This document shows, one piece after another, positions 1-52,649 of a DNA stretch of 64,000 nucleotides. The notes under the pieces are model-generated. The model did no database searches. It saw only the letters and a list, made by a program, of their open reading frames with translations, and was not told the origin of the DNA. The position numbers and the translations under genes were made by a program. Origin of the DNA: Thermoleophilia bacterium. GTDB taxonomy: Bacteria; Actinomycetota; Thermoleophilia; BMS3ABIN01. Each line of letters starts with the position of its first letter. The stretch's first letter is position 1. Location: positions 61,222 to 125,221 of the forward strand of contig JACWAD010000048.1 in the NCBI GenBank assembly GCA_014874175.1, given 5' to 3'.

Positions 1-998
1 GTCTTCTGTCCTATCAATGTGCCGCGGCCGTCGTCCTTGACAGCTCCGGCGACTATCTCCGAGGCGCTGGCGGTATAGCCGTTGACCAGCACAACCAGCG
101 GTATAGACCCGTTGGCGCCTCCGCTGGCCGTATACGTATGCCTGTTGGAATCACGGTCCACGACCGAGACAATAGTGCCGCCGGGGATGAAGTCGCTGGC
201 CACGTTTACCGCCTCGTCCAGCAGGCCGCCGCCGTTGTCCCTCAGATCCAGAATGATTCCCTGGGCGCCTTGCCCCACCAGCTTGTCAAGGGAGCCTTTC
301 ACTTTGGCCCCTGCCTCGGATGAGAACTGCTCCAGCCGGATGTAGCCAATTTTCTTTCCCTTGTGCTCAAGAATTTTATCGGTGACAATTGGAAGCTCGA
401 GCTGTTTGCGCACCACTGACTTGTCCATCTCCTGGCTGCCGCGCTTTATGTGCAGAACCACGGTTGTGCCCGCGTTGCCTTTTATCAAAGCGGTTGCTTC
501 TTCCGGGGTCTTGCCGGCAAGGGACCGGCCGTTTACAGAAACAATCAGGTCGCCGCTTCTGACATCGGCCCCCTGAGCCGGAGAGCCGGAAATGACGCCG
601 ATTACCAGCAGCTGCCCGTTTTTCGGCTCCAGCGTGACGCCAATTCCAATAAACGTCCCTTGTGAATGTTCTTCAAACTGCCGGTATGCAGCTGGGTTTA
701 GGTACTCTGAATAGGGGTCGTTAAGGCTTGCCACCATTCCATTGATGGCGCTGTTTTCGAGGCTGTTTTTGTCAACAGGCTTGTAGTAGCCCTCTTCGAG
801 TACTGATTCGATCTGGCTCTCCAGCTGAAGCAGGCTGTCTCCGGGGAAGAAAAAAAAGCGGACGCCTTGAGGGGCCAGGCTGACAAGCGGCGCCACCTGG
901 TAATAATGGCCGCCTATCCAGACGCCCAGCATGGTTCCAGACAGGAAAGCAATCCAGACGGCGAACGCAATCAGAAATACCCTCAAACCACGCGGCAT
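1..998 (-). CDS. ctpA: C-terminal processing (tail-specific) protease, peptidase S41 with PDZ domain; 3' end cut by window edge
   Basis: Reverse-strand translation gives MPRGLRVFLIAF... with GIILDLRDNGGGLLDEAV and GYTASASE S41 signatures; TM/signal N-terminus; ATG at 998. Confidence 0.85.
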   Translation of the reverse strand, partial: MPRGLRVFLIAFAVWIAFLSGTMLGVWIGGHYYQVAPLVSLAPQGVRFFFFPGDSLLQLESQIESVLEEGYYKPVDKNSLENSAINGMVASLNDPYSEYLNPAAYRQFEEHSQGTFIGIGVTLEPKNGQLLVIGVISGSPAQGADVRSGDLIVSVNGRSLAGKTPEEATALIKGNAGTTVVLHIKRGSQEMDKSVVRKQLELPIVTDKILEHKGKKIGYIRLEQFSSEAGAKVKGSLDKLVGQGAQGIILDLRDNGGGLLDEAVNVASDFIPGGTIVSVVDRDSNRHTYTASGGANGSIPLVVLVNGYTASASEIVAGAVKDDGRGTLIGQK

Positions 999-1348
999 AG
1001 AGCAAAGGGTAGCTGCTTTGGCAAGGGAGTGCAAACGGTGGCGCGCCTTGACAACTCTCGGCGGCCGGGTATTAAATATTAATGCTGTCTTAAGGGTATA
1101 AAGCGCGCTTTTCTGAAGGTTTGTGCTGGCGGGGCCGCGGGGCGTCAGTCGGGTCTGGTTTTTTGACCTTCACGCCTTCTTTTCTGTTAGCGGCAGCGGG
1201 AAACGCAGCAAGGCTAAAAGTGCGCGGACAGGGCATGGAGAAGAGGTACACTCCCCCAATTTATCTCTTTTTTAACGGGTAGGATGCCGGCATATCGCAC
1301 CGGCTTACCCGAAAGCCTGTTGGCTCTGACACTAAAGGAGGATGGGAT

Positions 1349-2836
1349 ATGGCAGACGCGACCGCGAGTTCCAGACACAAGATTTACGCTATCGGCGTGT
1401 TTGGTTTTGTAGCAATCCTTTCGATTTTGTACTACCTTTCGGCGCCGGTGTATATTTACATCATTGCCTACATGTGGTTTGGATTCATTTACGGCATCCT
1501 GCAGCAGTACGGCCGTTTTTGTTTTGCTTCTGCTTTCCGCGACCTGATCATGGTCAAGGTGCCGCGCATGTTTGTCGGCATCATCATCGGCCTGATAATG
1601 CTGAGCATTGTCAACTCGTACATCGTTTCAGTTTATCCTGACAAATACATCATTGAATCGATCGGGTTCCACGGCCTTCTGGGCGGCGCCATATTCGGGC
1701 TGGGCATGGTTTTTGCCGGAGGCTGCGCCACCGGGAGCCTTTACAAGACCGGCGAAGGCAACATGATCTCCTTTACGGTGCTGATGGCCCTCGCCTTTTC
1801 CCAGGCCATCTTCCAGGCGACGGCGTTTGACTGGTTCAAGTCGCATTTCATTGACGGGAAGACGCTCAATGATGTCGGCTTGACAAAGGTTCTGTTCGGC
1901 GGCATTGGCAACCACACCGCCAAGTACTCGTTTATCCAGCACCTGCTTGGCGACACTTTGATAAATGCGGTCCTGGTGGGCCTGCTGCTGCTCATCGGCG
2001 TTTATGTCTTCGTGGTGCGCAAGCCCTTCCTTAAGCGCCGGGCCCGGCAGATTGCAGCCACCGCCGGCGCCACGGCCGACGGCGGCACGGCCAAGCCCGG
2101 CTTTAAAGATGAGCTGGCCGGTTTCTGGTCGATGATCAGCGCCTCCCGCCGCACCTCGATTGCCGCCATCCTGATCGGCATCGTAGCCGGCGCGCAGATC
2201 TTCACCCTTGCCTGGCTTCAGAATCGTTATGATTTCACCAATTTTGGCCAGGTGCTGGCCGGCAAGCCGGCGGCAGGAGCGCCGCTGCCCAACGGCAGCA
2301 AAGTCTCCCCCACGCCGCCCTCGAGCTGGCCCCAGACGCACGCCACCTACCCGGCAGTATCCCATAATAATACGGTTTTTGACCCCGGTTACTGGTACAT
2401 CACCACCCAGGAAGCAATGTTCGGCGGCTGGGTGCTTCACCACATTGGATTTTCAGTTACGAACAACAGTTACTTTGGCCAGGACAACGGCATTCCCAAC
2501 CCCTGGCTTAGCCCCGCCCTGCTGCTTTCGATCGGGCTCATCCTGGGGGCTTCATTCAAGGGCCTGATGGCGCGGGAGTTTAAGTGGAAATTCCCGCACT
2601 CAAAGGCGCAATGGGCCTATGCCGTCGGCGGCGGCACCCTGATGGGCGTCGGCGCCCGCATCGGCCTGGGCTGCAACATCGGCGCTTTTTACGGCCCCGC
2701 GGCTTTTGGCAATCCCAGCGCCTGGGTTTTCTTCGTCGGCTTGTTTATAGGGGCCGCCTTGGCAGCAAGGTATATTAACTTCTTTGCCAACCGCAAGATG
2801 GCCTCGGACGAAATGGATTTTGATATCCAGCTGTAA
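1349..2836 (+). CDS. yeeE: YeeE/YedE family sulfur-compound (thiosulfate) transporter
   Basis: 495-aa polytopic membrane protein with GGCATGSLYK motif typical of YeeE/YedE; GGAGG RBS 8 nt upstream of ATG; followed by TusA-like gene. Confidence 0.8.
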   Translation: MADATASSRHKIYAIGVFGFVAILSILYYLSAPVYIYIIAYMWFGFIYGILQQYGRFCFASAFRDLIMVKVPRMFVGIIIGLIMLSIVNSYIVSVYPDKYIIESIGFHGLLGGAIFGLGMVFAGGCATGSLYKTGEGNMISFTVLMALAFSQAIFQATAFDWFKSHFIDGKTLNDVGLTKVLFGGIGNHTAKYSFIQHLLGDTLINAVLVGLLLLIGVYVFVVRKPFLKRRARQIAATAGATADGGTAKPGFKDELAGFWSMISASRRTSIAAILIGIVAGAQIFTLAWLQNRYDFTNFGQVLAGKPAAGAPLPNGSKVSPTPPSSWPQTHATYPAVSHNNTVFDPGYWYITTQEAMFGGWVLHHIGFSVTNNSYFGQDNGIPNPWLSPALLLSIGLILGASFKGLMAREFKWKFPHSKAQWAYAVGGGTLMGVGARIGLGCNIGAFYGPAAFGNPSAWVFFVGLFIGAALAARYINFFANRKMASDEMDFDIQL

Positions 2837-2890
2837 CTGAACATTCTGGAAAGCTGGAAAGCATTTGTGACAAACGGGAGGTGAAACGGT

Positions 2891-3136
2891 TTGAAATTTA
2901 ACAAGCTTGAAGAGGGCAAGTACGAGCTGGACGTAACCGGCTACGTCTGCCCGCATCCGCAGCTCTATACTCTCAAGTGCATGGAAAAGCTGGAAGACGG
3001 CATGGAGCTGGATGTCCTTATTGACAATCCATCTTCGGTGGAGTCCGTGACCCAGGCCTGCAACGGCAAGGGTTATGCAATCCTCGAAAAGACAAATCCA
3101 AAGGCCGGCGTGACGGCCCTCAAGATTCAGAAATAG
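2891..3136 (+). CDS. tusA: TusA-like sulfurtransferase (YeeD/SirA family)
   Basis: 81 aa with YVCPHP (CPxP) active-site motif; TTG start preceded by GGGAGGTGA. Confidence 0.85.
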   Translation: MKFNKLEEGKYELDVTGYVCPHPQLYTLKCMEKLEDGMELDVLIDNPSSVESVTQACNGKGYAILEKTNPKAGVTALKIQK

Positions 3137-3158
3137 GGATTAACAGTTTCCGGTTTGA

Positions 3159-3226
3159 GCCTTGCAAGGCGCGGGAACTACAGGAATTAAAATCCTGTGG
3201 TGCCGCGCCTTGTGATTTCTTGTGTT
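3159..3226 (+). terminator. Nested stem-loop (12-bp palindrome GCCTTGCAAGGC plus 10-bp stem CAAGGCGCGG/CCGCGCCTTG) followed by U-rich tract after tusA
   Basis: Inverted repeats read directly from sequence; located 25-90 nt after tusA stop. Confidence 0.4.
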
Positions 3227-3345
3227 ATGACTATGGCAATAATATAATCACGCTCCAGACTGTCCTCCGCAAAGGAGCCCATTGCCGGGCCAGAGGGCGG
3301 GCATATAAAACCAACACGATGGAGGTAGCAAATGGAGGTCGCGAC

Positions 3346-3633
3346 ATGAGCAAACTGGGAATTCTCGTAAGTACCGACAAATACCTCGAGGATGTCGTCG
3401 GGCTCGCCGGGGCAGCCAAGGCCGCCGGTCACGATGTCACCATTTTCGGGATGGACGACGGCACACTGCTAATGGCCGACATCTGCAAGGAACTGGGCGA
3501 CGCCGCTCAAGTCTCATATTGCGAACACAGCGCCTCGCCGCGCGGCGTTTCCGATGTAGAAGGCGCTACTGCAGGCAGCCAGTACCAGAACGCGGTCATG
3601 ATGCATGAAGCAGACAAGGTGGTGGTCTTTTAA
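3346..3633 (+). CDS. DsrE/DsrF-like sulfur relay protein
   Basis: MSKLGILVSTDKY... ~96 aa; GGAGG RBS; conserved Cys in SYCEHSA; stop overlaps next start (TAATG). Confidence 0.65.
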   Translation: MSKLGILVSTDKYLEDVVGLAGAAKAAGHDVTIFGMDDGTLLMADICKELGDAAQVSYCEHSASPRGVSDVEGATAGSQYQNAVMMHEADKVVVF

Positions 3634-3914
3634 TGGGAGACGAAGCCAAAAAAATTGCCGTTATAATCCGGGACAGGCAGGACGAAGCGCTGCGCATGGC
3701 GGTAGGGCTGACGCTTGAGGGCGACGAGGTTGCTGTTTTTAATCTCGGCGAGCCCATCGATCGTCACGGCGACAACGATCTTAACGTGGAGACCCTGGGA
3801 GATCTTGATTGCGGCCGCTTCTCGGTTAATGCCGCCGATGAAGGCTTCGAGCAGATGACAATGCAGAACATTCCCCAGAAGCTGCTTGAGTTCGATCACG
3901 TCGTTCCTTATTAA
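3633..3914 (+). CDS. DsrE/DsrF/DsrH-family small sulfur relay protein
   Basis: 93 aa, IAVIIRDRQDEALRMAVGLTLEGDEVAVF pattern of DsrE/F fold; translationally coupled to upstream dsrE-like. Confidence 0.55.
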   Translation: MGDEAKKIAVIIRDRQDEALRMAVGLTLEGDEVAVFNLGEPIDRHGDNDLNVETLGDLDCGRFSVNAADEGFEQMTMQNIPQKLLEFDHVVPY

Positions 3915-3962
3915 AGACAGGGGTTATGTAAAAGAGCATCGCCCCGGTACTGCGAGGTAACC

Positions 3963-4136
3963 ATGAAGATACTGCACATCATCAAGGAATTTACCGAAAC
4001 CGGAAACGTGGACACGATAATTGAAGACCAGGAAGCTCCCGATAACGAGGTAACGGTTTTCCGCCTAAAGGAAAGCAAGGACTACGCCAGGCTGGTTGAC
4101 CTAATCTTTTCCAGCGACCAGGTTTACACCTGGTAA
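3963..4136 (+). CDS. Short DsrH/TusB-like ORF (57 aa), not in supplied ORF track
   Basis: ATG at 3963 preceded by GAGGT; N-terminus MKILHIIKE resembles DsrH/TusB MxILHxV start; ends 4134-4136 TAA. Confidence 0.35.
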   Translation: MKILHIIKEFTETGNVDTIIEDQEAPDNEVTVFRLKESKDYARLVDLIFSSDQVYTW

Positions 4137-4184: not shown

Positions 4185-4214
4185 AAAAAGGCCCTCATGC
4201 GAGGGCCTTTTATT
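4185..4214. terminator. Bidirectional rho-independent terminator between dsrH-like ORF and cspA
   Basis: AAAAAGGCCCTCatgcGAGGGCCTTTTATT: 8-bp GC stem flanked by A-run and T-run. Confidence 0.7.
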
Positions 4215-4232: not shown

Positions 4233-4433
4233 TTAGAGAACCCGCACGTTGGTTGCCTGCGGACCCTTTGGCCCCTCCGTTGGCTCGAAGCTCACCTTCT
4301 GTCCCTCGGTGAGGGTCTTAAACCCGTCGCCCTGGATCTCAGAAAAGTGAACGAACAAATCGCTGCCGTTCTCCTGCTCGATGAAGCCATACCCTTTCTG
4401 ATCGGAGAACCATTTGACTGTTCCTTCTGGCAA
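4233..4433 (-). CDS. cspA: Cold-shock protein CspA family
   Basis: [15 protein letters not shown] ... cold-shock domain; likely TTG start at 4433 with GGGAGG RBS (supplied ORF extends to alternative GTG at 4466). Confidence 0.9.
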
Positions 4434-4585
4434 GGTCTTCCTCCCTTCGTTTCCGTGGCAGTGCACTCGAACCTTGCCAAAAGCTTCAGTCCAGTACCAC
4501 TTACCTTTTTCATGCCCGCCCCGCGGACCTAATAATAATAAGCCAGGACAGGTTTTTTAGCAAACCAAACGGCAAACATTTGGTA

Positions 4586-12750: not shown

Positions 12751-14445
12751 TCAGGATGAGAACTTTACCCGGCAGTAATTGTCGTACGTGGAAAGGTCGT
12801 ATACCCTGTCGCCGGCATCCGAAAACTTAAGCACAGCCTTCGGGATCGTGCCGCCATGCATAACAAGGTAGCGGAAACCGTCCGCGCAAAGGCTGTCGTA
12901 GTTCCCGGCGCGGTACTCTGCGAAAGTGGCGGCGTCTTTTTTAACAACGCTTAGCGGACGGCGGGATATATATCCCCCATACACGGGGCGGTCATATGTC
13001 ATTTGCTGATAAAGCATCATCAACCAGAGGGGCCTTTGGCCGCCTTCGTACGTGTCGTCAAACACGGCCCCCTTGCCGGGGATGGCCTTCAAGGCAAGAG
13101 CGTAGGCTGAAGTTCGCGGTTTAGTGGTTTGGAATTGCTGGGCCGGCAGGTATTCCAGGAAGATCAACAAAGCCAGGCATCCCAGGGCCGCCGCAGCCAG
13201 GCGCCTGTTTTTCACGCCCGCCAATATTCTGGCCAGCGCCAAGGCCGAGATAACCGCGGCCGCCAGCACCACGATGACAAACATCCTGTTCGGCATTGCG
13301 GCGACGGAGAGCAGGGGGACAAGTTTTTGCAGCAGCAGGTAAGGCATGGCTACGTGCAGGTTTTTGTTGCCGACATGCAGCCAGGGTCCGAGGCTAAGCA
13401 GCCAGAAGACGACAAATACAAGCAGCCATCCATCCAGGAAGCGATTCCTGAGGCTCTTCCACCAGGATATCGCAAACGCTATCAGCGCCAGCACCGTGAG
13501 ACCGAGAAAGCTTTCGCCCACTCCTTCTCCGATCGCAAGCCCCTGGCCATGCCAGTCCTTGAGAAAGCCCGGCATCAGCGGCCCCAGCAGCTCTGTTGAG
13601 AACTTGACCGGATCGTGATTATCCTGGAAGGGATCGGCCTGGTTTGTTTTTATGAATGCAATTACAAATGGGCCAGTTGTCAAAATCATGATCAGAAAGA
13701 AAACGGCCAGCGACCGCAAGCTGGCGCCGCCGGCAAAGCGGCGCAGGCCGGCTTTTGCCGCCAGCACGATCAGGAAGAGGAGGCCGGCAACAGCAGCGTA
13801 GAGGAAGTAATAAAGCTCGGTGTAGAAGGTTAGCGTCAGGAAAACGGCGGCGGCGGCGCCAAGGCGGATGCTGGGCCGCGTCAACAATTTGTGCCAGAAA
13901 AGCAGAAACAGGGGCAGCCACTCCAGGGAATTAAGGTTGATATGGCTGCCAATATGAAGCATCTGGTAGCCGGAAAAGGCGTAAATAAAACCGGCGATGA
14001 TGCTGGGCCAGTATGAGCTGCAGAAATAGAAGGCGAGCAGGAAAGCACTGAGGCCGGAGGCGACAAAGGCAAAGATCACCAGGGCGTCGTAGGACTGGAA
14101 AGGCGAGAAGAAACTTTCCAGCGCCGCGCCGGCAATGGCGTTGGTGGGGCTAAGAGTATGGCCCAGGAGGGTCGTGCCTTCCGGAAAATGGATCTCCGGG
14201 GCGAAATAGGGCCAGCGCAAATGTTCGATTGACTGGCGCATGTGCCAGATATTCCACAGGTTCTGGACGCCGTCGCCTTCATCGCCGTAAAAATGGCTGC
14301 CAAACTGCGTGATCGCGGGGAAAGTGAGCAGGCAAAAGCAGACAAAGTAGATCAGCAGAGGAATAATGCCGAACCTGACCAGCCGCGGGCCGGAGGTGGA
14401 ATTCACGCCCCGCAGCACTTTTTGAATTTCCTGCCGGAGCCGCAC
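12751..14445 (-). CDS. Large polytopic membrane protein, GT-C superfamily glycosyltransferase-like (PMT/ArnT/YfhO-like)
   Basis: 564 aa, >10 [20 protein letters not shown] acidic loop motif near N-terminus, soluble C-terminal domain; annotated start overlaps secA stop by 43 nt so start uncertain. Confidence 0.5.
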
Positions 14446-33085: not shown

Positions 33086-35005
33086 TTATCTTTCCGGTCT
33101 TAAATAAAGAGAAAGAACGGAAATATCTGCGGGGGAAACGCCGGCTATACGTGAAGCCTGGCCCAGGTTGGAAGGGCGGAAGCGGGCCAGTTTTTCCCGG
33201 GCTTCTATCGTAATGCCCTGGAGATGCTCGAATATCATGTTTGTCGGTATTGGTGTTTTTTCGAGGGCGTTTGTGCGCCCGATTTCTGCCAGCTGGCGGT
33301 TAATGTATCCAGAGTACTTAATTTCAATTTCGGCCCGCCTGAGAATCCGGCTGTGCTCTGTCAGGGGGTGGTCCAGCAAGGGCAGAATATCGGCCATGGA
33401 GATCTCGGGACGTTTCAGCAATTGAGCCGCCGGTTGGGGTTCTGATAATGGGGCCGAGCCAATGGCGGCAAGTCGACGGTTTACATATTCGTCGGCAGGG
33501 ACCACCGTTTCTGATAAATTCGAAATCAGTTTTTCAAGATGAGCCTGGTCATTTGAAATTAAGGAAAGATCCTTATCTGCCACAAGGCCGAGGCGGTGGC
33601 CAAGAGATCCAAGCCTCGCATGCGCATTGTCGTGTCTGAGCATGAGGCGGTATTCGGCCCGGGACGTAAAAATGCGGTAGGGCTCATCCACTTCCTTTGT
33701 AACAAGGTCATCAATCAGCACGCCTATGTAGGCCTGGCTGCGCTTGAGGGTAAATGGAGAGTTGCCTTTGACAAAAAGGGCTGCGTTGATGCCAGCTATC
33801 AACCCTTGGGCTGCGGCCTCTTCATACCCCGAAGTGCCATTAATCTGGCCGGCTAGGAAAAGACCCGCAATTTTCTTGTTTTCCAGGGATAATTTCATTT
33901 GATTCGGAAAAATGTAGTCATATTCGACCGCATACCCGGGGCGAGTCAGGCGGGCTTGCTCAAGGCCCGGCGTTGCCCGGACAATTTTTTCCTGGACCCA
34001 GACCGGAAGGCTCGTCGTAAGGCCCTGTAAATACATCTCTTTCGTGTGACGTCCTTCAGGTTCAACAAAGACCGGGTGCCGGCTCCTGTCTGGAAAATTC
34101 ATAACCTTGCGGTCAATGGATGGACAGTAACGGGGGCCTTTACCGCTGACGGAGCCGCTTTTAATCGGGGAAAGATGGAGGTACTTTCGCACGACCTCAT
34201 GTGTTTTCTCCGTCGTGTAGGTGAGGTAACAGGGCATCTGAGGATGCCGATTTGGTTTTGAGAAGGGAGAAAATGTTGCGGGATTCTTGTCCCCGGGATC
34301 GATCTGCATTCTATCGGTCCGCAAGGACCGGGCATCAACGCGGGGAGGCGTTGCCGACTGGAACCTGCCGAGCTCAAGTCCTGCTTCAATCAGGCTTGAA
34401 GATAGCCCGCCCGCTGGCGGCTCCCCCATTCTGCCGGCCGGGAAAGAAAGAGCGCCGATCACAATTTTCCCCCGGAGAAAGGTGCCACAAGCGAGAATTA
34501 CAGTTTTTGCAGGGATAATACTGCCATCTATTAATTTGATGCCGTTAATTGTTTCACGTGAAACAATTATTTCCGTGGCGGTTGACTCCAGGATTTGCAG
34601 TAAGGGCTCCGAGATGAGAGCCCTTCTCATGTTGTCTTCATAAAGCTTTTTGTCTGTTTGCGCCCTCAGGGCCTGCACCGCGGGTCCCTTTCCCGTGTTC
34701 AGCATCTTCATCTGAATAAACGAACTGTCGGCATTCTTGCCCTGCTGGCCGCCGAGCGCGTCAATCTCGCGGGTTAGCTGGCCTTTTCCAATTCCACCCA
34801 CGGCTGGGTTGCAGGGCATAAGGGCGATCTTGTCAAGGTTAAGGGTAAGAAGAAGGGTCGGGCAGCCCATACGGGCGGCAGCCAGTGCTGCTTCACAGCC
34901 GGCGTGCCCGCCGCCCACAACCGCCACGTCAAACCGGGGTAACGCATTTGATTTGGTTTTACTGCTCATCCATTCACGTTCAGGAATCTGAACTCGGGCT
35001 TGCAT
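33086..35005 (-). CDS. mnmG: tRNA uridine 5-carboxymethylaminomethyl modification enzyme MnmG (GidA)
   Basis: FDVAVVGGGHAGCEAALAAARMG, CNPAVGGIGKG, GPRYCPSID, LTRPGYAVEYD, C-terminal MnmE-binding domain; start could be internal ATG at 34969. Confidence 0.95.
   Translation of the reverse strand: MQARVQIPEREWMSSKTKSNALPRFDVAVVGGGHAGCEAALAAARMGCPTLLLTLNLDKIALMPCNPAVGGIGKGQLTREIDALGGQQGKNADSSFIQMKMLNTGKGPAVQALRAQTDKKLYEDNMRRALISEPLLQILESTATEIIVSRETINGIKLIDGSIIPAKTVILACGTFLRGKIVIGALSFPAGRMGEPPAGGLSSSLIEAGLELGRFQSATPPRVDARSLRTDRMQIDPGDKNPATFSPFSKPNRHPQMPCYLTYTTEKTHEVVRKYLHLSPIKSGSVSGKGPRYCPSIDRKVMNFPDRSRHPVFVEPEGRHTKEMYLQGLTTSLPVWVQEKIVRATPGLEQARLTRPGYAVEYDYIFPNQMKLSLENKKIAGLFLAGQINGTSGYEEAAAQGLIAGINAALFVKGNSPFTLKRSQAYIGVLIDDLVTKEVDEPYRIFTSRAEYRLMLRHDNAHARLGSLGHRLGLVADKDLSLISNDQAHLEKLISNLSETVVPADEYVNRRLAAIGSAPLSEPQPAAQLLKRPEISMADILPLLDHPLTEHSRILRRAEIEIKYSGYINRQLAEIGRTNALEKTPIPTNMIFEHLQGITIEAREKLARFRPSNLGQASRIAGVSPADISVLSLYLRPER
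34547..34568. promoter_or_regulatory. parS centromere site (perfect 22-bp palindrome AATTGTTTCACGTGAAACAATT; core TGTTTCACGTGAAACA) inside mnmG
   Basis: Exact match to the Firmicutes/actinobacterial parS consensus tGTTtCAcGTGAAACa. Confidence 0.8.
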
Positions 35006-35079
35006 GCTTCTTGCCCCGTTTCGGCTTCCCGAAGGCCAGATCTCGACAAGCCCCTAGCAGTATTAACATTTCTGCTGAC

Positions 35080-35099
35080 CATCCTGGGTGAATCGGATG
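35080..35099. promoter_or_regulatory. 20-bp palindromic site CATCC-N10-GGATG (copy 1) upstream of mnmG
   Basis: CATCCTGGGTGAATCGGATG; second copy exactly 200 bp away. Confidence 0.35.
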
Positions 35100-35279
35100 A
35101 TCGCCGGTATTTTAACTGGCCGTCCAATTCTCAGTTTTATATATGTCATCCCGTTCGCTCCGCTCAGGGCAAGCTCTGAGGCGAAGCCGAATGATCCCGG
35201 TTAAAAAACCCGGATTCTTCGTCGCCGGAGCTTGCCTGGGTGAAGCTGAAGGGGCGGCTCAGAATGACAAATCATTGCT

Positions 35280-35299
35280 CATCCTGAGTAAATTGGATG
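35280..35299. promoter_or_regulatory. 20-bp palindromic site CATCC-N10-GGATG (copy 2), followed by 35-nt AT-rich tract
   Basis: CATCCTGAGTAAATTGGATG; flanking ~33 nt also ~80% identical to copy 1. Confidence 0.35.
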
Positions 35300-35333
35300 A
35301 TCAGTGTATTTTATCATTGTTTTTATTTTGGTA

Positions 35334-36398
35334 TTAAAATTTGGTTGTACAGGCAATGGTCACCGGCCTTGTTTTTCCGCAGGCAACGGCACGGCACAGC
35401 CTGGCGGCAATACTGTCAGGCTCAACCCTTGTGGCCGTCCTTGACTTGCCGGCCCGTAGTGAGGCATTCTTCCCTGCTATGGCTCCCAGGACGGCTGCTT
35501 CCGCAAAATAGCTGCAGCCGGCAGCCCTGCCGGCAAAAAAGAGCCCCGGGAGGCGCCCGGCTTCAAGGCTGGCGCCGACCTGCTTGACGGACAGGATCTG
35601 ATGATGGACGGCGTAGCCAGGCCGCGTCAACCATGGCTGCGGAAATTCGGAGCTGAGATTGCTCAGGGCAGACGCCCGGTTTCCGGCGAGCCTCGTACTT
35701 GTACCGTAAAGCTCACCCGGCACGACTTCAGGCAGCCATCGATCAGCGCCGGGGCCGCTTTTTGCTAAGCTTCTGGAGTCGAGATGAGGAGAGGAAACCG
35801 CCCGTACCCTCTCGGTGTTCACGCCAAGACCATCCAGGCAGCGGGCCAGGGCCTTGGCGGGAATCTCACTCCGGCGCCCGCCTGGGGAAAAAGAACCGCC
35901 TTCTTCTACGATCCCGCGCAAGAAGGTGCCAGCGGCTAGAACGATAGATGTTGCCATGAAGCTTTCGCCAAGGTTGGTGCCAGCAGTCCAGAATTTACCT
36001 GCCGGCTTGAGAGATGTGACAAGCGCCTGCCTGATTTCAACGTCTTCGGATTGCAGCGCCTCCTGATAGGCAAGACTGAGCTGGCGCCGGTCGGCTACCA
36101 GGGCCCCGGCGAAAGATCCGGGCGGGCATAATTCTTTTGTGCGAAGGATCCTGGGCAGCATGCCACCCATTTTGCCCAACTCTTCGATAAGCAGGTAACG
36201 AGGGTCGTCTTCACCCTCGGCCAGGACCGGGCTGCCCGGGTTAAGTCCGACGGTGTCGATGTTGATGCTTATACATAAGGATGAAGCGCCTGACCGCGCG
36301 GCTGCTGCCGACGCTTCACACCCCGCAGGTCCGCCACCGATGACCAGGACGTCGTAAACATTGTCACAATCGTTCTTATTTGCCAACACAGAATTCAC
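35334..36398 (-). CDS. Truncated MnmG/GidA-like FAD-binding protein (354 aa) lacking the insertion/catalytic-Cys region and C-terminal MnmE-binding domain
   Basis: YDVLVIGGGPAGCEASAAAARSG, AAGTFLRG, LTRPGYAVHHQ, LFFAGRAAGCSYFAEAAVLGAIAG align to MnmG motifs; CNPAIGG and RYCPS motifs absent; start overlaps mnmE stop. Confidence 0.7.
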   Translation of the reverse strand: MNSVLANKNDCDNVYDVLVIGGGPAGCEASAAAARSGASSLCISINIDTVGLNPGSPVLAEGEDDPRYLLIEELGKMGGMLPRILRTKELCPPGSFAGALVADRRQLSLAYQEALQSEDVEIRQALVTSLKPAGKFWTAGTNLGESFMATSIVLAAGTFLRGIVEEGGSFSPGGRRSEIPAKALARCLDGLGVNTERVRAVSSPHLDSRSLAKSGPGADRWLPEVVPGELYGTSTRLAGNRASALSNLSSEFPQPWLTRPGYAVHHQILSVKQVGASLEAGRLPGLFFAGRAAGCSYFAEAAVLGAIAGKNASLRAGKSRTATRVEPDSIAARLCRAVACGKTRPVTIACTTKF

Positions 36399-37752
36399 GG
36401 AAAATTTCGTCCAGCAGGTCTTCCATCATTTCCTCGCCCGTGATCTCACCCAGCGCCGTCAGCGCCGCGCGCAGCTCCTCTGAAATAATTTCTTCTCCCA
36501 GCCCCACCCGCAGGCCTTGCTGCGCCTTGAGGAGGCGCTCCGAAGCAGAGGCGAGCAGACGCTGATGGCGTTCCAGGGTTACCACGGGGCTTAAAGTGTG
36601 AGAGAAGGCTTCTCCTAAAACGAGGCGGGATATTTTTTCCTTCAGCTCGTTAAGTCCTTGACGCGTCAGGGCGGAAATTAGGACCGGCTGCGCCGGAAGC
36701 AGTCCCCGGTTAAATGATGGCGCGCGGCCGCGAAACAGGTCACATTTGTTAATTATGTAAATGGTCTTTTCCGGCAGGACCGAGGTAAGCAGGGCGCGGT
36801 CATGATCATCTTCCCGCCTGCTGCCGTCAAAAAGGCAGAGGATCAGATCTGCTTCCTTCAGCGCTTTGCGGCTGCGCTCAACGCCTATCTGTTCAACAAT
36901 GTCATCCGCAGGCGCCATGCCGGCTGTGTCAGTCAGTTGCAGGGGCACGCCGCCGACGTTGATGATCTCCTCAATGGTGTCGCGGGTAGTGCCAGGAATT
37001 TCCGTCACAATTGCCCTTTCACGCATCAGCATCGCATTGAGCAGGCTTGATTTGCCCACGTTCGGTTTGCCTACAATGGCGGTGCGGACACCCTGGCTCA
37101 GTATGCGGCCGGCAAAGGCAGACTCCGCCAGTTCCTCCAGGCACTTCTTGATCTGGGACAGGCGGGTTTCGGCTTCTTCCCGGTTGAGTTCTTCAATATC
37201 TTCATCGGAAAAATCCAGGCCAGCTTCCAGGGCGCCAAGCACAGACAGGACGCCGCGGCGAAGCGATTTTATCTCGGCAGAAAGAGACCCCTCCAGCTGT
37301 GACATTGCCAGCTTAAGCGCTGCCTCTGTCTTGGCGGATACAATCTGGGCGACGCTCTCGGCCTGGGCCAGGTCGATTCTGCCGTTTAAAAAAGCCCTGC
37401 GCGTGAATTCTCCCGGCGGCGCCAGTTCAGCGCCATGGTCCAAAAGCAGCGCCAGAATTTTTTTCTGGGCCACAGGTCCACCATGGCAGTTAACTTCCAC
37501 CATGTCTTCCCGCGTATATGTCCCGGGAGCCTTCATGACTGAAACCAGGACTTCGTCAATCACCTCCCCCGCCTCTGGGCTTACAATTCTGCCGTAGTGA
37601 AGGGTATGGGAGCCGGCTTGCTCAAGCCCGCACTTTCCCTGGAAAACGCCGCCACAAATAGTAATCGCCTCCTGGCCGGTCATGCGAACGATGCCAATGG
37701 CGCCGGCTCCCAGAGGTGTGGAGATTGCCGCTATTGTCGGGTAGTTCCGCAT
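36376..37752 (-). CDS. mnmE: tRNA modification GTPase MnmE (TrmE)
   Basis: MRNYPTIAAISTPLGAGAIGIVRMTG, G1 GKPNVGKSSLLN, G2 TTRD, C-terminal CVGK; supplied 741-aa ORF has spurious 283-aa N-terminal extension. Confidence 0.93.
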   Translation of the reverse strand: MRNYPTIAAISTPLGAGAIGIVRMTGQEAITICGGVFQGKCGLEQAGSHTLHYGRIVSPEAGEVIDEVLVSVMKAPGTYTREDMVEVNCHGGPVAQKKILALLLDHGAELAPPGEFTRRAFLNGRIDLAQAESVAQIVSAKTEAALKLAMSQLEGSLSAEIKSLRRGVLSVLGALEAGLDFSDEDIEELNREEAETRLSQIKKCLEELAESAFAGRILSQGVRTAIVGKPNVGKSSLLNAMLMRERAIVTEIPGTTRDTIEEIINVGGVPLQLTDTAGMAPADDIVEQIGVERSRKALKEADLILCLFDGSRREDDHDRALLTSVLPEKTIYIINKCDLFRGRAPSFNRGLLPAQPVLISALTRQGLNELKEKISRLVLGEAFSHTLSPVVTLERHQRLLASASERLLKAQQGLRVGLGEEIISEELRAALTALGEITGEEMMEDLLDEIFREFCVGK

Positions 37753-37774
37753 GGTGTGTATTATAACAACGGAT

Positions 37775-37802
37775 TTTGGACATTGGGCTTTGGATATTGG
37801 GC
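37775..37802. repeat. Tandem 14-nt direct repeat TTTGGAYATTGGGC x2 in mnmE/yyaL divergent promoter region
   Basis: Read directly: TTTGGACATTGGGC TTTGGATATTGGGC. Confidence 0.4.
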
Positions 37803-38061
37803 AAAAACCAAACCCATTTTTACTGAACATATAGTTATTCGGGAGAGGCTTGCCCTGAGTTTGCCTGTTTCCCCTTTCAAACAGGATGGTCAGCCTGGAT
37901 GTCGTTTGGCGCCTGGATTGTTTAAAATGTCCGGGTTGCGGCAAGCGAATGCTGGAGATCCGGCGATTATGAAAAAAGCGATGCTCTGCTTCAGCCTCCG
38001 GCGGCCGGATCTCGACAGCCCTTCGAGTTACTATATTTCTCAGGCTTCCCGGGAGAGTTGG

Positions 38062-39909
38062 ATGACTGGTAAAGGAAAGGAAAAGTTTATTTTCTCGCCC
38101 CGCCCAAACCAGGCGGCGCAAATCAGGTGGCGAGGGTGGAGCAGCCAGGCGCTGCGGCTGTCTCGCGAGCAGGGAAAACCAATCTTGCTGGTGATATCGG
38201 CCTCGTGGTGCCACTGGTGCCATGTTATGGACGAAACCTGTTTTTCTGACCCGGAGGTGATACAGTTGATCAACAGCAGATTCATACCCGTGCGTGTTGA
38301 CAGCGGTAGGAGGCCTGATATTAACAGCCGCTACAATCAGAGCGGCTGGCCAACGCTGGCATTTCTTACCCATGAAGGCGAGGTAGTTGCGAGCACCACG
38401 TATATTCCAACTGAGCAATTGAAGCGGCTGTTGACTGATATTGCCGATCTTTGCGGATCCAGCGCCAACAAGGTTAAGGAGGCCGTCCGGGAGATCCAGC
38501 GCCTGCGCCAGGAGCGCCCGCAGGCGCGGCCGGAGGAGCCGGGCCCGCAAGTCATATCCGACGTGCTCGAGGTTATGCGGCCGGAGGAGCCGGGCCCGCA
38601 AGTCATATCCGACGTGCTCGAGGTTATCGGGGAAAGTTATGACCGGGAATATGGCGGATTTGGCTGGGAGTCAAAATTCCCGTACGCCGACGCACTTGCC
38701 TTCCTGCTGACGACGCTTGCGGACGGCTATTTAGAGGCTGTTGACAATATGTTAAGAACAACGCTTGACGCCATGTCTGCCGGCGGCATGTACGACCGCG
38801 TGGAAGGGGGCTTTTTCCGGTATTCAACTGCAAGGGACTGGTCAGTTCCTCATTATGAAAAAATGCTGGCAGACAACGCCGCCTTGATGGCTGTTTACGC
38901 TAACGCATTTCTTTTAACCGGTGAGGAGGGCTACAAAAGTGTGGCCAAGGACGTCTGCTCTTATTTGCGCGCGGTGCTGCTTGACCGGCAAACGGGCGCT
39001 TTTGCCGGCAGCCAGGATGCGGATGAGCATGAGCATTATTATTCACTTGGCGCCGCAAAGCGGGCGAATAACAAAGCGCCGCGGCTGGACCGCGCGGTTT
39101 ATACGGATCAGAATGCGGCGGCCGCTTCGGCCCTGCTTCGGATGTTCCAGATATTTGACGATCCGGAGTATCGCAGTATGGCCGCAGCAGCGCTTGATTT
39201 TGTCTGGTGGCGGCTCTGGGACAGCGAATCGGGACCAAGCCATTATTATGAAGACGCAAAACCACGCTTAAGCGGGCAACTGGCCGATGCTTCCTCCCTC
39301 CTGTCGGCCTGCATGGATTCTTTCTTATGAGAGCGGCGCCGGCGAACTCTGGCTGGACAGGGCCATCCAGGCCGCGAAATGGCTGCTGGCAAGCCTTGAG
39401 GACAAGGAGAGCGGCGGCTTTTTTGATTGCTATAAGCCATTGGGCAATACCGGACTTCTGTCCGAGCGGGACAAACCAATAACAGAAAACAGCAATGCGG
39501 CCTCTGCCCTTATCCGCCTGGCCCAGTCAACCAGCATGCCAGTTTTTGGCGAGGCAGCGCGCCGGGCGCTGGCTTTTTTTGGCTCTACTTACAAGGGAAA
39601 GGCATAATAGCCGCCGGATATGCGGCTGCTGTACAACGCCTTCTGGAGCCGCCAGTGCGGGTGACGATTGTTGGTCCGGAAAGTTCCAAATCAACCAGGA
39701 TGATGATCGGCGCGGCGCACCGGGCCCGCATCCCCTTCCGTTCAGTGGAAGTGCTTGATCCGCGAACGCATGCCGAGGACCTGGAAGCTTCAGGTTTCGG
39801 ATATGCCGGCGAACCGGTGGCTTACATCTGTATCGGAACAAGCTGCCAGGCACCGGTAACCGACCCTGTTGTTCTCCCGGAACGGCTGGAAGGGAGCCGG
39901 CACCGGTAG
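38062..39909 (+). pseudogene. yyaL: Thioredoxin-domain protein YyaL/DUF255 (SPATA20-like) interrupted by two frameshifts (near 39320 and 39595)
   Basis: Three consecutive ORFs in different frames (38062-39330, 39287-39607, 39655-39909) all matching one family: ASWCHWCHVMDETCF thioredoxin motif, GGFFD..., C-terminal ICIGTSCQAPVTDP. Confidence 0.65.
38527..38628 (+). repeat. Perfect in-frame 51-bp tandem duplication (RPEEPGPQVISDVLEVM/I x2) inside yyaL-like gene
   Basis: Two adjacent 51-nt copies differing at 1 nt. Confidence 0.85.
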
Positions 39910-50933: not shown

Positions 50934-52649
50934 TCAGAAATTTATCAGCGACTGAAATTTAAGGCCGACCAGCGTAACCAGCTCTCTTAAGTGTGGAGAA
51001 TAGGAAACAACAATGGCCAACGGCGCCAGCGCCGCGACAAACAAGGCGGTCAGTTCTAGCGATAGCCTTCCAAAGCCGGGATCACCGGCTCGCTTGACTT
51101 CTCTTCCGGTTCTGCTATTTTCCAGGGACCAGTTAATCAGGCGCTTCCAGACTTTAGGCAGAATCTCGTTTCCCTTGCTCCAGACCAGCAGGGCAACGGG
51201 AGGTCCAAACACGACCAGCACCCGCAGCGTTTCCTGCACGTCCATGGACAGCGGGGAATGCCACCAGAAGCTGTCAAAAAACATAACTGTGAACGAAAAC
51301 AGCAGCGCGCACTTATAGATAAGACGCCAGGGCCTGAGAGCGATCAGACCCAGCGCCATCGTCAGATACCATGGCTGGAACCACAGCAGGGCCAGCGGCA
51401 TTAAAAAGGCTATGCCGGCGGACGCCGAAACAAGAGCGGCCCTGTTCTTGACGCCAAGGGCATGCCAGGTCAAATAAACAACCAGCGCTGCCGCTAGCGC
51501 CAGCTGGACTACTGTGATTGATAGCGGCAGTTGCAACTGTCCCACGGAAACGTCATGAATCAGCTGAGGGATGGTGAAATTGACTTTTTCGCCCACAGCA
51601 GTCAAATAGCTGAAAGTTCCGCGGCCCTCCCACAGGGGGGCGTAACTGGCCAGAATTGTTGCAACAGCAACTGCAAGAGACCCCGCCCCCGTCAACAGAC
51701 GCCATTTCAGCTTGGCCTGCTTGCGAATTGACAGAGCGATGTAAACCAGCAGGATCGGCAGAGCAATGAACTTGACCAGAACCGCCAGCGTAATAAAAAA
51801 AGCACCCAGGATCAGGCGCCGGTTGAGATAGCACAAGATGCCGGCCAGCACAAAAACAAGCATGAAGATGTCATTGTGGGCGCTCGCCACCACCAGAGCC
51901 AGGATGAATGGGTTCCAGCCATAAAAAAGCATTGCCTTTTTCTCCAGCCCGGGGCGCAGGCGGGCGGCAATGCTTCCGATGAGGATCACGTTGGCAAGAT
52001 CAAGGCAGACGAAGAAGCTTTTGAAGACAAGGAAATTTGCTCCAATGCCGTTGCCGGCGATTACCGCCAGGAACCCGGCGGCGTAAACGTGGAGCGGCCC
52101 GTAAACAGAGCCGGTTCCCACCCAGCCGCCCATGTTAAAGAAAGGATCGTGAGGAAAATATGTGGCCGGCACGACCAGCGGGTTCTCGCCGTAGATGGCG
52201 AATATGCGTCCGTGGCGAATGTAGTCAAAAAGATCGGTTGACAAAAGGAACGGCGTTAACAGCATCACCAGGTGGAAGAGAACCGTCATGCCGAAGATAT
52301 AGTTTGTCATGCTGTCGCGCCGCCAGGGATGGAGAGGCGCCGGCGCCGACGGCAGGACAGCTCCCGAACGGAGATTGCTTACCGCTCTTAGGGCAATGAA
52401 ATACAAGCCAAACAGGAGCAGGGCATTGATGCAAATTAATATGTATAACAGGTAATAGTCTGTTAACCCTAAACCGCCATCCGGCAGGGCCAGATAGGGA
52501 GGAAAGTGGCTGAAGTCAGCCCGGGGGATAAACAGGGGCAGGATGGCAAACAGCAAATATGAAAACAGGCAGGCGCCCCCCGCCGTCATGATCATGACCC
52601 GGGGGCTGGCCAGTTTTCCGTTGTTGATTTTATCGAGCCTTTGCCACAT
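50934..52649 (-). CDS. GT-C superfamily membrane glycosyltransferase (DUF2029/GT87-like mannosyltransferase candidate)
   Basis: 571 aa, >11 TM, DLFDYIRHGRIFAIYGENPLVVP loop motif near N-terminus; operon with MctB-like and deacetylase. Confidence 0.5.
   Translation of the reverse strand: MWQRLDKINNGKLASPRVMIMTAGGACLFSYLLFAILPLFIPRADFSHFPPYLALPDGGLGLTDYYLLYILICINALLLFGLYFIALRAVSNLRSGAVLPSAPAPLHPWRRDSMTNYIFGMTVLFHLVMLLTPFLLSTDLFDYIRHGRIFAIYGENPLVVPATYFPHDPFFNMGGWVGTGSVYGPLHVYAAGFLAVIAGNGIGANFLVFKSFFVCLDLANVILIGSIAARLRPGLEKKAMLFYGWNPFILALVVASAHNDIFMLVFVLAGILCYLNRRLILGAFFITLAVLVKFIALPILLVYIALSIRKQAKLKWRLLTGAGSLAVAVATILASYAPLWEGRGTFSYLTAVGEKVNFTIPQLIHDVSVGQLQLPLSITVVQLALAAALVVYLTWHALGVKNRAALVSASAGIAFLMPLALLWFQPWYLTMALGLIALRPWRLIYKCALLFSFTVMFFDSFWWHSPLSMDVQETLRVLVVFGPPVALLVWSKGNEILPKVWKRLINWSLENSRTGREVKRAGDPGFGRLSLELTALFVAALAPLAIVVSYSPHLRELVTLVGLKFQSLINF

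What the first reader, a model, noticed from the sequence alone, without database searches (positions are those of the whole stretch)
1349..4136. Compact sulfur-trafficking module: yeeE - tusA - two DsrE/F-like - a 57-aa DsrH-like ORF
A YeeE/YedE transporter (GGCATGSLYK) and a CPxP TusA are followed by two small DsrE/DsrF-fold genes. These two are translationally coupled (TAATG) and unusually short (96 and 93 aa). An unannotated 57-aa ORF (3963-4136, MKILHIIKE...) has a DsrH/TusB-like N-terminus. Together this resembles a miniaturised TusBCD/DsrEFH relay attached to a thiosulfate importer. The downstream fate of the sulfur (thiolation, Hdr-like oxidation) is not encoded nearby.
Basis: partly seen in the sequence, partly recalled or inferred. 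Interest (0 to 1): 0.55.

Follow-up and report, generated by a model that had tools for sequence, protein, structure and literature searches.

The report
yeeE–tusA–dsrEFH type II sulfur relay
This is a real five-gene sulfur import and hand-over module, but it belongs to a kind already described (the "YTD" cluster, renamed DsrEFH type II in 2026), so it is a correct catch and not a new system.

Summary
Five plus-strand genes, each with a Shine-Dalgarno site, occupy 1349-4136:
- a 495-aa YeeE (PF04143)
- an 81-aa CPHP TusA (PF01206)
- a 95-aa DsrE-like protein
- a 93-aa protein coupled to it through a TAATG overlap
- a 57-aa ORF

- ORF3 has an invariant Cys59 that aligns with the active-site Cys78 of A. 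vinosum DsrE.
- The ORF5 profile finds 139 representative clusters. Most are 55-59 aa. Two 87-88-aa members pass Pfam DsrH, so ORF5 is a DsrH lacking about 31 central residues.

All five genes are syntenic in 15 Actinomycetota MAGs. Relatives occur in Nitrospirota and Pseudomonadota.

This matches the yeeE-tusA-dsrEFH type II (former YTD) cluster of Plum-Jensen et al., ISME J 2026. Their DsrH is 6.8 kDa, and their subtype 1 spans the same three phyla. The novelty call is therefore "already known".

No dsrAB, dsrC, sHdr, apr, sat or sox gene lies in the 64 kb. A close relative, the MAG named ACT_11, is reported to carry a full Dsr pathway.

One side finding: a conserved terminator-like hairpin and a promoter-like motif separate tusA from dsrE.

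The parts
1349..2836 (+). yeeE: YeeE/YedE-family membrane sulfur transporter, long form of 495 aa. It has a hydrophilic loop of about 90 aa at residues 293-384.
   Evidence: PF04143 E=5.6e-40 in two stretches. It contains exactly three Cys (58, 126, 442), in the motifs FCFASAF, GGCATGS and GLGCNIG. I equate these by motif with the three conserved YeeE cysteines described in PMC11073785. The NCBIfam TsuA and YedE equivalog cutoffs are not reached. An AAGGAGG Shine-Dalgarno site lies 8 nt upstream.
2891..3136 (+). tusA: TusA-family sulfur carrier, 81 aa, TTG start, active-site Cys20 within CPHP.
   Evidence: PF01206 E=1.8e-16. A GGAGGTG Shine-Dalgarno site precedes the TTG. Amino-acid identity is 74-96% in 16 Actinomycetota loci.
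3162..3227 (+). GC-rich nested hairpin (3162-3215) followed by a T-rich tail. It is a likely intrinsic terminator or attenuator for yeeE-tusA.
   Evidence: In the RNA fold of the tusA-ORF3 spacer, a strong hairpin lies close after the tusA stop, with a 13-bp outer stem and a 9-bp inner stem. A hairpin was found at the same place in all 16 Actinomycetota loci. Several have canonical U-tails, for example L003, L014 and L015. The simple terminator scan did not report it, probably because its loop limit is 8.
3220..3248 (+). Promoter-like site for dsrEFH: -35 TTGTGT (3220-3225), 17-nt spacer, -10 TATAAT (3243-3248).
   Evidence: TTGxxT-N17-TATAAT with exactly 17-nt spacing occurs in 15 of 16 Actinomycetota loci, 73-97 nt before ORF3 in 14 of them. 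The function is inferred from conservation and was not tested.
3319..3349 (+). Tandem ATGGAGGT motifs (3319-3326 and 3332-3339), and a 5-codon micro-ORF (3332-3349, MEVAT*) whose TGA overlaps the ORF3 ATG.
   Evidence: Read directly from the sequence. In the sequences printed, a GGAGGT ... ATGGAGGT pair immediately before the ORF3 start can be read by eye in the loci I checked (L001-L003, L006-L010, L015). It was not scored across all 16. The role is unknown.
3346..3633 (+). dsrE (type II): 95-aa sulfur-accepting subunit with invariant Cys59.
   Evidence: PF02635 26.7 bits against a cutoff of 22.7. Cys59 is invariant in 28 homologues, in the motif YC[ED]HSAxPRG. hhalign against A. vinosum DsrE (sequence verified as 2hy5_A) aligns Cys59 with Cys78, at 28% identity over 69 columns and pairwise E=0.0013. 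JGI names relatives 'TusD component (DsrE family)'.
3633..3914 (+). dsrF (type II): 93-aa DsrE/F-fold subunit without a conserved cysteine, translationally coupled to dsrE through TAATG.
3963..4136 (+). dsrH (type II): 57-aa, 6.7-kDa minimal DsrH/TusB-like subunit with no cysteine.
4186..4211 (.). Terminator-like hairpin in the gap where dsrH converges with the minus-strand cold-shock gene (4233-4466).
   Evidence: The scan listed it on the minus strand only: 11-bp stem, 6 GC pairs. On the plus strand the same hairpin is followed by TATTGCAG, which is not a T-run. Calling it bidirectional is my inference from the symmetric stem and A/T-rich flanks. The neighbour is a CSD protein, PF00313 E=7e-30.

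Best explanation
The locus is a yeeE-tusA-dsrEFH type II cluster, formerly called the YTD cluster, in an uncultured Thermoleophilia/Gaiellales-like actinomycete.

Proposed mechanism:
1. YeeE brings a reduced sulfur species across the membrane along its three-cysteine path. The species is probably sulfane sulfur or polysulfide rather than thiosulfate.
2. TusA Cys20 accepts the sulfur as a persulfide.
3. TusA passes it to Cys59 of the small DsrE subunit. DsrE sits in a DsrE-DsrF-DsrH heterotrimer in which DsrF and the 57-aa DsrH are cysteine-free scaffolds.
4. The trimer hands the sulfur to DsrC, encoded elsewhere in the genome, for oxidation by DsrAB.

What is shown here: the gene identities, the active-site cysteine, the folds and homologies, the synteny and the purifying selection.

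What is taken from published biochemistry on the cable-bacterium orthologue: trimer formation, and the TusA to DsrE-Cys to DsrC transfer.

What is inferred: the substrate, the acceptor in this organism, and the direction of flux.

In this lineage yeeE-tusA and dsrEFH appear to be two adjacent transcription units, separated by a conserved hairpin and a promoter-like site.
For: - Domain and motif evidence.
- ORF4 fold.
- ORF5 as a truncated DsrH.
- Five-gene synteny in 15 Actinomycetota loci, and linked homologues in Pseudomonadota sulfur oxidisers.
- ORF4 homologues named in Thermodesulfovibrionales/Nitrospirota.
- PMC13293266 describes three small genes beside yeeE and tusA. They form a 1:1:1 complex and have a 6.8-kDa DsrH. 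Sulfur transfer from TusA depends on the DsrE cysteine, and transfer to DsrC is unidirectional. Subtype 1 is found in Nitrospirota (57%), Pseudomonadota (21%) and Actinomycetota (8%).
- L013 shares 85-90% amino-acid identity with the five window proteins. Its record names it 'B_ACT_11'. PMC9326234 reports the Thermoleophilia MAGs ACT_02 and ACT_11 as carrying reductive and oxidative dsrAB and dsrEFH, with dsrD, dsrTMK and qmoABC expressed.
Against: - No dsrC, dsrAB, dsrMK, sqr, apr or sat gene lies in the 64-kb window, so the acceptor is not shown.
- The authors' type II HMMs were not available, so subtype placement rests on the architecture and on which phyla carry homologues.
- Only one of the five ORF5 models was confident.
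- Heteromer formation was not modelled.
- The physiological role of the cluster, oxidation or disproportionation, is still debated in the literature.
Confidence: 0.8

Rival explanations
1. The cluster serves sulfur disproportionation, which was the original proposal for the YTD cluster, rather than Dsr-based sulfur oxidation.
For: [quoted passage not shown]
Against: PMC13293266 reports that only 25 of 63 cultured disproportionators carry the genes, and that many non-disproportionating sulfate reducers have them. Nothing in the window bears on this question.
Confidence: 0.12
2. It is an assimilatory thiosulfate uptake system like E. coli TsuA/TsuB (YeeE/YeeD), with the three small proteins routing sulfur to biosynthesis.
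For: The YeeE and TusA-family pair with the three-cysteine path matches the architecture of the thiosulfate importer.
Against: The NCBIfam TsuA models score 102.8 and 75.9 bits against cutoffs of 400 and 645. TsuB/YeeD scores 22.5 against 147.5. [quoted passage not shown] No cysteine-synthesis genes are adjacent.
Confidence: 0.05
3. It is a TusBCD-type relay feeding tRNA 2-thiouridine synthesis (TusA to TusBCD to TusE to MnmA).
For: The fold and gene order parallel tusD-tusC-tusB. mnmE and mnmG lie in the same window at 33-38.6 kb.
Against: mnmE and mnmG are about 30 kb away, beside parB and rsmG, which I read as ordinary origin-region housekeeping. No tusE or mnmA is nearby. The conserved partner across phyla is a membrane transporter, not a tRNA enzyme. 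The characterised homologue donates to DsrC.
Confidence: 0.02
4. It is a selenium-handling YedE/YedF-type module.
For: The best NCBIfam hits are selen_YedE_FdhT for YeeE and YedF for TusA.
Against: Both are far below cutoff: 131 against 350 bits, and 50.4 against 79 bits. No selD, selA or selB turned up among the window ORFs scanned.
Confidence: 0.01

Closest known systems
yeeE-tusA-dsrEFH type II cluster (former YTD cluster), characterised in Electronema aureum GS (Plum-Jensen et al., ISME J 2026, PMC13293266)
   Same: Both have three small genes beside tusA and yeeE. DsrE has one essential cysteine. The DsrF and DsrH equivalents are not recognised by sequence annotation. DsrH is tiny: 6814 Da there, 6705 Da here. 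Identity to type I is below 30%. Homologues occur in Actinomycetota, Nitrospirota and Pseudomonadota, as in their subtype 1.
   Different: The subunits here are shorter: 95 and 93 aa (9.9 and 10.4 kDa), against 13.3 kDa (Strep-tagged) and 12.7 kDa. In E. aureum, tusA and dsrEFH are transcribed as one operon. Here a conserved hairpin and a promoter-like site lie between tusA and dsrE. The host is an actinomycete from a lineage reported to carry both dsrAB types, not a Desulfobulbaceae with reductive dsrAB only.
Canonical DsrEFH (type I) of Allochromatium vinosum (PDB 2HY5) and TusBCD of E. coli (PDB 2D1P)
   Same: The E-F-H gene order is the same. The fold is the same. The active-site Cys sits in the same C-x6-RG context. 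TusA is the upstream donor.
   Different: The canonical subunits are 130, 132 and 101-102 aa (PDB chain lengths), against 95, 93 and 57 aa here. ORF4 and ORF5 fail the Pfam models. The genes are not next to dsrAB or dsrC. They are linked to a membrane transporter instead.
YeeE/YeeD (TsuA/TsuB) thiosulfate uptake system and SoxT-type YeeE-like sulfane-sulfur importers
   Same: The Sulf_transp fold has three conserved cysteines, and a CPxP TusA-family partner is encoded immediately downstream.
   Different: This YeeE is 495 aa with a hydrophilic loop of about 90 aa. It falls far below the TsuA equivalog cutoffs. Its substrate is unknown.

Membership tests
DsrEFH type II / YTD cluster | Three small syntenic genes adjacent to tusA and a yeeE/yedE-like gene | tested here: met
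   The order is yeeE, tusA, ORF3, ORF4, ORF5 within 1349-4136. The same order occurs in 15 Actinomycetota loci.
DsrEFH type II / YTD cluster | DsrE subunit with a conserved cysteine equivalent to DsrE type I Cys78 | tested here: met
   Cys59 is invariant in 28 sequences. It aligns with Cys78 of 2hy5_A.
DsrEFH type II / YTD cluster | Second subunit with the DsrF/TusC fold, not detected by sequence models | tested here: met
DsrEFH type II / YTD cluster | Very small DsrH-like third subunit (about 6.8 kDa in the characterised complex) | tested here: met
   57 aa, 6705 Da, against 6814 Da. The profile reaches PF04077-positive proteins.
DsrEFH type II / YTD cluster | Below 30% identity to type I subunits | tested here: met
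DsrEFH type II / YTD cluster | Hit to the authors' type II HMMs and placement in a subtype | not testable with these tools
   The HMMs are not available here. The phyla carrying homologues (Actinomycetota, Nitrospirota, Pseudomonadota) match subtype 1 as described.
DsrEFH type II / YTD cluster | Stable 1:1:1 heterotrimer, with sulfur transfer from TusA to the DsrE cysteine and on to DsrC | not testable with these tools
   This needs biochemistry or multimer modelling. It has been shown only for E. aureum proteins.
DsrEFH type II / YTD cluster | Co-occurrence with dsrAB and dsrC in the genome (typical of the family, not defining) | tested here: inconclusive
   None in the 64-kb window. The relative 'B_ACT_11' (L013) matches, by name, a MAG reported with dsrAB and other dsr genes.
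Canonical DsrEFH type I / TusBCD | All three subunits recognised by PF02635 (E and F) and PF04077 (H) | tested here: not met
   Only ORF3 passes, at 26.7 bits. ORF4 and ORF5 have no hit. None of 23 ORF5-family members hits PF04077 at E<=10.
Canonical DsrEFH type I / TusBCD | Subunit sizes of about 130, 132 and 101 aa, with location in a dsr operon or with tusE/mnmA function | tested here: not met
   Sizes here are 95, 93 and 57 aa. The neighbours are a peptidase, csp, vanZ, ftsEX and transketolase.
TsuA/TsuB (YeeE/YeeD) thiosulfate importer | NCBIfam equivalog scores for TsuA and TsuB | tested here: not met
   102.8 against 400 and 75.9 against 645 for TsuA. 22.5 against 147.5 for TsuB.
YeeE/YedE superfamily (PF04143) | Sulf_transp domain, and three central cysteines | tested here: met
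   E=5.6e-40. Cys58, 126 and 442 are the only cysteines. I equate them by motif with the three conserved YeeE cysteines.
TusA family (PF01206) | TusA domain with a CPxP active-site motif | tested here: met
   E=1.8e-16. CPHP lies at residues 20-23.

The most novel reading that the evidence does not exclude
Relatives in this Thermoleophilia-like lineage are reported to carry both reductive and oxidative dsrAB plus a canonical dsrEFH. In such a genome the type II set may be a separately regulated second relay. The conserved terminator-like hairpin, the TTGxxT-17-TATAAT promoter and the tandem Shine-Dalgarno/micro-ORF leader between tusA and dsrE would let the cell uncouple sulfur import (yeeE-tusA) from delivery to DsrC. 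That would make this junction a control point for the direction of the Dsr pathway.
Probability: 0.12. Interest if true: 0.45.

Novelty: already known. Interest (0 to 1): 0.2.

Why it matters
DsrEFH type II has been proposed as a marker that organisms with a 'sulfate-reducer' gene set can also oxidise sulfur. Recognising it correctly changes how a genome's role in the sulfur cycle is read.

This locus adds nothing categorically new. It does document three things:
- An actinomycete example with the smallest subunits I saw (95, 93 and 57 aa).
- A graded length series (55, 66, 74-76 and 87-88 aa) that ties the orphan 57-aa protein to Pfam DsrH by sequence.
- A conserved terminator-like hairpin and promoter-like site between tusA and dsrE, which differs from the single tusA-dsrEFH operon reported in cable bacteria.

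It also shows that standard Pfam and NCBIfam annotation still misses two of the three subunits.

Tried and rejected
- Pfam and NCBIfam gave nothing for ORF4 and ORF5.
- A Pfam scan of 23 ORF5-family members at E<=10 gave no DsrH hit, only scattered noise.
- hhalign of the ORF4 profile against the ORF3 profile gave probability 2%. ORF5 against ORF4 gave 1.6%. The three subunits cannot be linked to each other by sequence.
- PDB profile searches:
  - ORF4 found nothing relevant.
  - The narrow ORF5 alignment gave 0 hits.
  - The broader ORF5 alignment put DsrH second, but only at E=1.4.
  - ORF3 found DsrE only at E=0.6.
- The afdb50 fold library was unavailable.
- An Rfam gathering-threshold scan of the whole window gave 0 hits, so no riboswitch or leader family lies upstream.
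- ARAGORN on 1-1400 found nothing.
- The apparently ORF-free first 1.3 kb is a minus-strand S41 peptidase gene that runs off the window edge.
- Longer ORF3 starts were considered and rejected: TTG 3220 (137 aa) and ATG 3319 (104 aa). Homologues start at MSKLG/MKLG with their own Shine-Dalgarno site, and the upstream stretch is not conserved as protein.
- The selenium (YedE/YedF) and tRNA-thiolation readings were considered and rejected, as set out under the rival explanations.
Full report
**1. What is in the sequence**

Five plus-strand ORFs fill 1349-4136, and each is preceded by a good Shine-Dalgarno sequence.
- YeeE, 1349-2836, 495 aa.
- TusA, 2891-3136, TTG start, 81 aa.
- ORF3, 3346-3633, 95 aa.
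- ORF4, 3633-3914, 93 aa. The ORF3 stop codon and the ORF4 ATG overlap in TAATG.
- ORF5, 3963-4136, 57 aa.

A terminator-like hairpin at 4186-4211 separates the block from a convergent cold-shock gene. On the left, a minus-strand S41 peptidase gene runs off the window edge. No Rfam family is present anywhere in the window.

**2. Identities of the five proteins**

YeeE matches PF04143 at E=5.6e-40, and TusA matches PF01206 at E=1.8e-16.

YeeE has exactly three cysteines, at positions 58, 126 and 442. I equate them by motif with the three conserved central cysteines of YeeE transporters described in PMC11073785. It falls far below the NCBIfam equivalog cutoffs for the thiosulfate importer TsuA and for selenium-linked YedE.

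ORF3 passes the Pfam DsrE model only narrowly, at 26.7 bits against 22.7. Its Cys59 is invariant in 28 homologues, within YC[ED]HSAxPRG. A profile comparison with A. vinosum DsrE aligns Cys59 with the active-site Cys78, with the same C-x6-RG spacing.

ORF5 was the doubtful part, and three lines of evidence bear on it.

First, it is a real gene. It is present at 62-93% amino-acid identity in 15 syntenic Actinomycetota loci. Nucleotide differences fall 90/69/261 on codon positions 1/2/3. A similar 56-58-aa ORF follows the DsrE-like gene in many Pseudomonadota loci.

Second, it is homologous to DsrH. A profile search of 1.84 billion representative proteins found 139 clusters at E<=0.001.
- Most of these are 55-59 aa.
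- The set also contains forms of 66, 74-76 and 87-88 aa.
- Two of the 87-88-aa proteins, P0279 (E=6e-5) and P0315 (E=4e-4), pass the Pfam DsrH gathering score.
- Sources name a third, P0255, and the P0315 cluster TusB/DsrH.
- The alignment shows conserved MKILH at the N-terminus and DY..L[IV]DLIF..D.V..W at the C-terminus, with a clean 31-residue gap in ORF5.
- A. vinosum DsrH itself matches the family profile at both of its termini. That match is not significant on its own, at E=1.4.

**3. Distribution**

The window comes from an uncultured Actinomycetota lineage. The closest loci are MAGs labelled Actinomycetes, Thermoleophilia or Gaiellales. The long-form YeeE, of about 460-555 aa, also occurs at 35-39% identity in Pseudomonadota. 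These include Thiobacillus, Ectothiorhodospira, Acidiferrobacteraceae and Sulfuricaulis.

In those genomes the three small genes are again linked to yeeE-tusA, in one of two arrangements.
- They lie directly after tusA, as in L023 and L032.
- They lie upstream in the order F-E-H, as in L055. In L055 a PAS-LuxR regulator precedes them, and a 609-aa PMT_2-like membrane protein sits between them and yeeE.

ORF4 homologues of 89 aa are common in metagenomes. The named ones come from Thermodesulfovibrionales/Nitrospirota.

**4. Comparison with the literature**

Their experimental findings:
- The three proteins co-purify 1:1:1.
- TusA persulfidates DsrE at Cys67.
- A Cys67Ser variant does not accept the sulfur.
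- The complex donates sulfur to DsrC unidirectionally.
- Thiosulfate does not persulfidate any of the proteins.
- Their DsrH has a calculated mass of 6814 Da. ORF5 is 6705 Da.

[quoted passage not shown] They find it in 985 genomes of 20 phyla. Their subtype 1 occurs in Nitrospirota (57%), Pseudomonadota (21%) and Actinomycetota (8%). These are the same three phyla in which I found homologues.

The locus is therefore an instance of a known, recently characterised kind.

**5. Downstream partners**

I scanned most of the larger ORFs of the window with Pfam. Only housekeeping genes appear. They include:
- ftsEX, split transketolase, hisG, a release factor, secA, hpf and AdoHcy hydrolase;
- pgi, pgm and a PBP;
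- parB, rsmG, mnmG and mnmE;
- ribonucleotide reductase, tatC, topA, tmk and holB.

There is indirect evidence for an acceptor elsewhere in the genome. Locus L013 shares 85-90% amino-acid identity with the five window proteins, and its record names it 'Thermoleophilia bacterium isolate B_ACT_11'. PMC9326234 describes Thermoleophilia MAGs ACT_02 and ACT_11 from an acidic pit lake. Both carry a reductive and an oxidative dsrAB copy and a canonical dsrEFH, and both expressed dsrD, dsrTMK and qmoABC. I made this link by isolate name only and did not check the accessions.

A review of dsrAB-carrying genomes also lists Thermoleophilia with full Dsr pathways.

**6. Mechanism and confidence**

I am about 90% confident that this is a yeeE-tusA-dsrEFH type II cluster.

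I put roughly 55% on the physiological reading: import of sulfane sulfur by YeeE, then TusA Cys20, then DsrE Cys59, then DsrC, then DsrAB-based oxidation. It is carried over from another phylum, the acceptor is not in the window, and the oxidation-versus-disproportionation debate is open.

The assimilatory thiosulfate, tRNA-thiolation and selenium readings are each unlikely, for the reasons given under the rival explanations.

**7. A difference worth recording**

In cable bacteria, tusA and dsrEFH are one operon. Here the 209-nt tusA-dsrE spacer contains three elements.
- A strong nested hairpin with a T-rich tail, at 3162-3227.
- A TTGTGT-17-TATAAT site, at 3220-3248.
- Just before ORF3, two tandem ATGGAGGT motifs and a 5-codon micro-ORF whose stop codon overlaps the ORF3 start, at 3319-3349.

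The hairpin is present in all 16 Actinomycetota loci, and the exactly spaced promoter-like site in 15 of 16. The tandem motifs can be read by eye in the loci I checked but were not scored across all 16. This suggests two adjacent transcription units in this lineage. That is an inference from conservation only.

**8. Verdict**

The feature is real, it was correctly interpreted, and it is already known. Interest is low. The residual novelty lies in the regulatory junction and in the length series that links the 57-aa protein to DsrH by sequence.

Noticed in passing
window 3162-3248: A strong nested hairpin with a T-rich tail lies close after tusA. It is followed by TTGTGT-17 nt-TATAAT. The hairpin is present in all 16 Actinomycetota loci and the exactly spaced promoter-like motif in 15 of 16. 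This implies that yeeE-tusA and dsrEFH are separate transcription units here, unlike the single tusA-dsrEFH operon reported in cable bacteria.
   Followed up: partly
window 3319-3349: Two tandem ATGGAGGT motifs lie 13 nt apart just upstream of ORF3. The second contains the ATG of a 5-codon micro-ORF (MEVAT) whose TGA overlaps the ORF3 ATG (ATGA). A GGAGGT ... ATGGAGGT pair can be read by eye in the related loci I checked, but it was not scored across all 16. The role is unknown.
   Followed up: partly
window 2225-2500 (YeeE residues about 293-384): This YeeE carries a hydrophilic, Pro/Ser-rich loop of about 90 aa between two hydrophobic segments, which makes it 495 aa. Relatives of similar length (about 460-555 aa) align over nearly the full length in Pseudomonadota sulfur oxidisers. 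Loop conservation was not checked specifically, and its function is unknown.
   Followed up: no
L055 4417-9691 (Acidiferrobacteraceae); the F-E-H order also in L046, L052, L067: In these Pseudomonadota the small genes lie upstream of yeeE in the order dsrF-like, dsrE-like, dsrH-like. In L055 a PAS-LuxR regulator precedes them, and a 609-aa PMT_2-like membrane protein is inserted between dsrH and yeeE. The regulator and the PMT_2 protein were checked in L055 only.
   Followed up: partly
proteins P0202, P0201, P0271, P0240, P0279, P0315: The DsrH-like family shows a graded length series of 55-59, 66, 74-76 and 87-88 aa with conserved termini. Only the longest forms keep the central 'HDAV...KDD..ARG' segment and pass Pfam DsrH. 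This looks like stepwise loss of the central segment.
   Followed up: partly
proteins P0223 (547 aa), P0259 (743 aa), P0300 (1711 aa), P0319 (362 aa): These large proteins match the middle of the ORF5 profile (positions about 22-52) in 4-6 separate stretches each. They may be repeat proteins or low-complexity artefacts.
   Followed up: no
L023 10295-10483 and L032 10283-10474: In the Gammaproteobacteria MAG L023 and the Thiobacillus MAG L032 (both with the order yeeE-tusA-dsrE-like-dsrF-like), the third small ORF is 62-63 aa. It lacks the MKILH and DY..LVDLIF..W motifs. It may be a divergent DsrH or an unrelated ORF.
   Followed up: no
window 33086-38601 (- strand): mnmG (639 aa), a second shorter GIDA-like ORF (354 aa) and mnmE lie beside rsmG and parB, which I read as an origin-proximal region. 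The longest mnmE ORF is 741 aa, with TrmE_N starting only at residue 289. Either the start is over-called or there is an N-terminal extension.
   Followed up: no
window 12751-14445, 50934-52649, 61676-63985 (all - strand): Three large ORFs (564, 571 and 769 aa) have no Pfam hit at E<=1e-5.
   Followed up: no
window 1-1170 (- strand): The apparently ORF-free left end is a stop-free reading frame of 389 codons that runs off the window. It corresponds to the S41 C-terminal-processing peptidase found upstream of yeeE in L002, and it shows nucleotide similarity to most of the Actinomycetota loci.
   Followed up: yes
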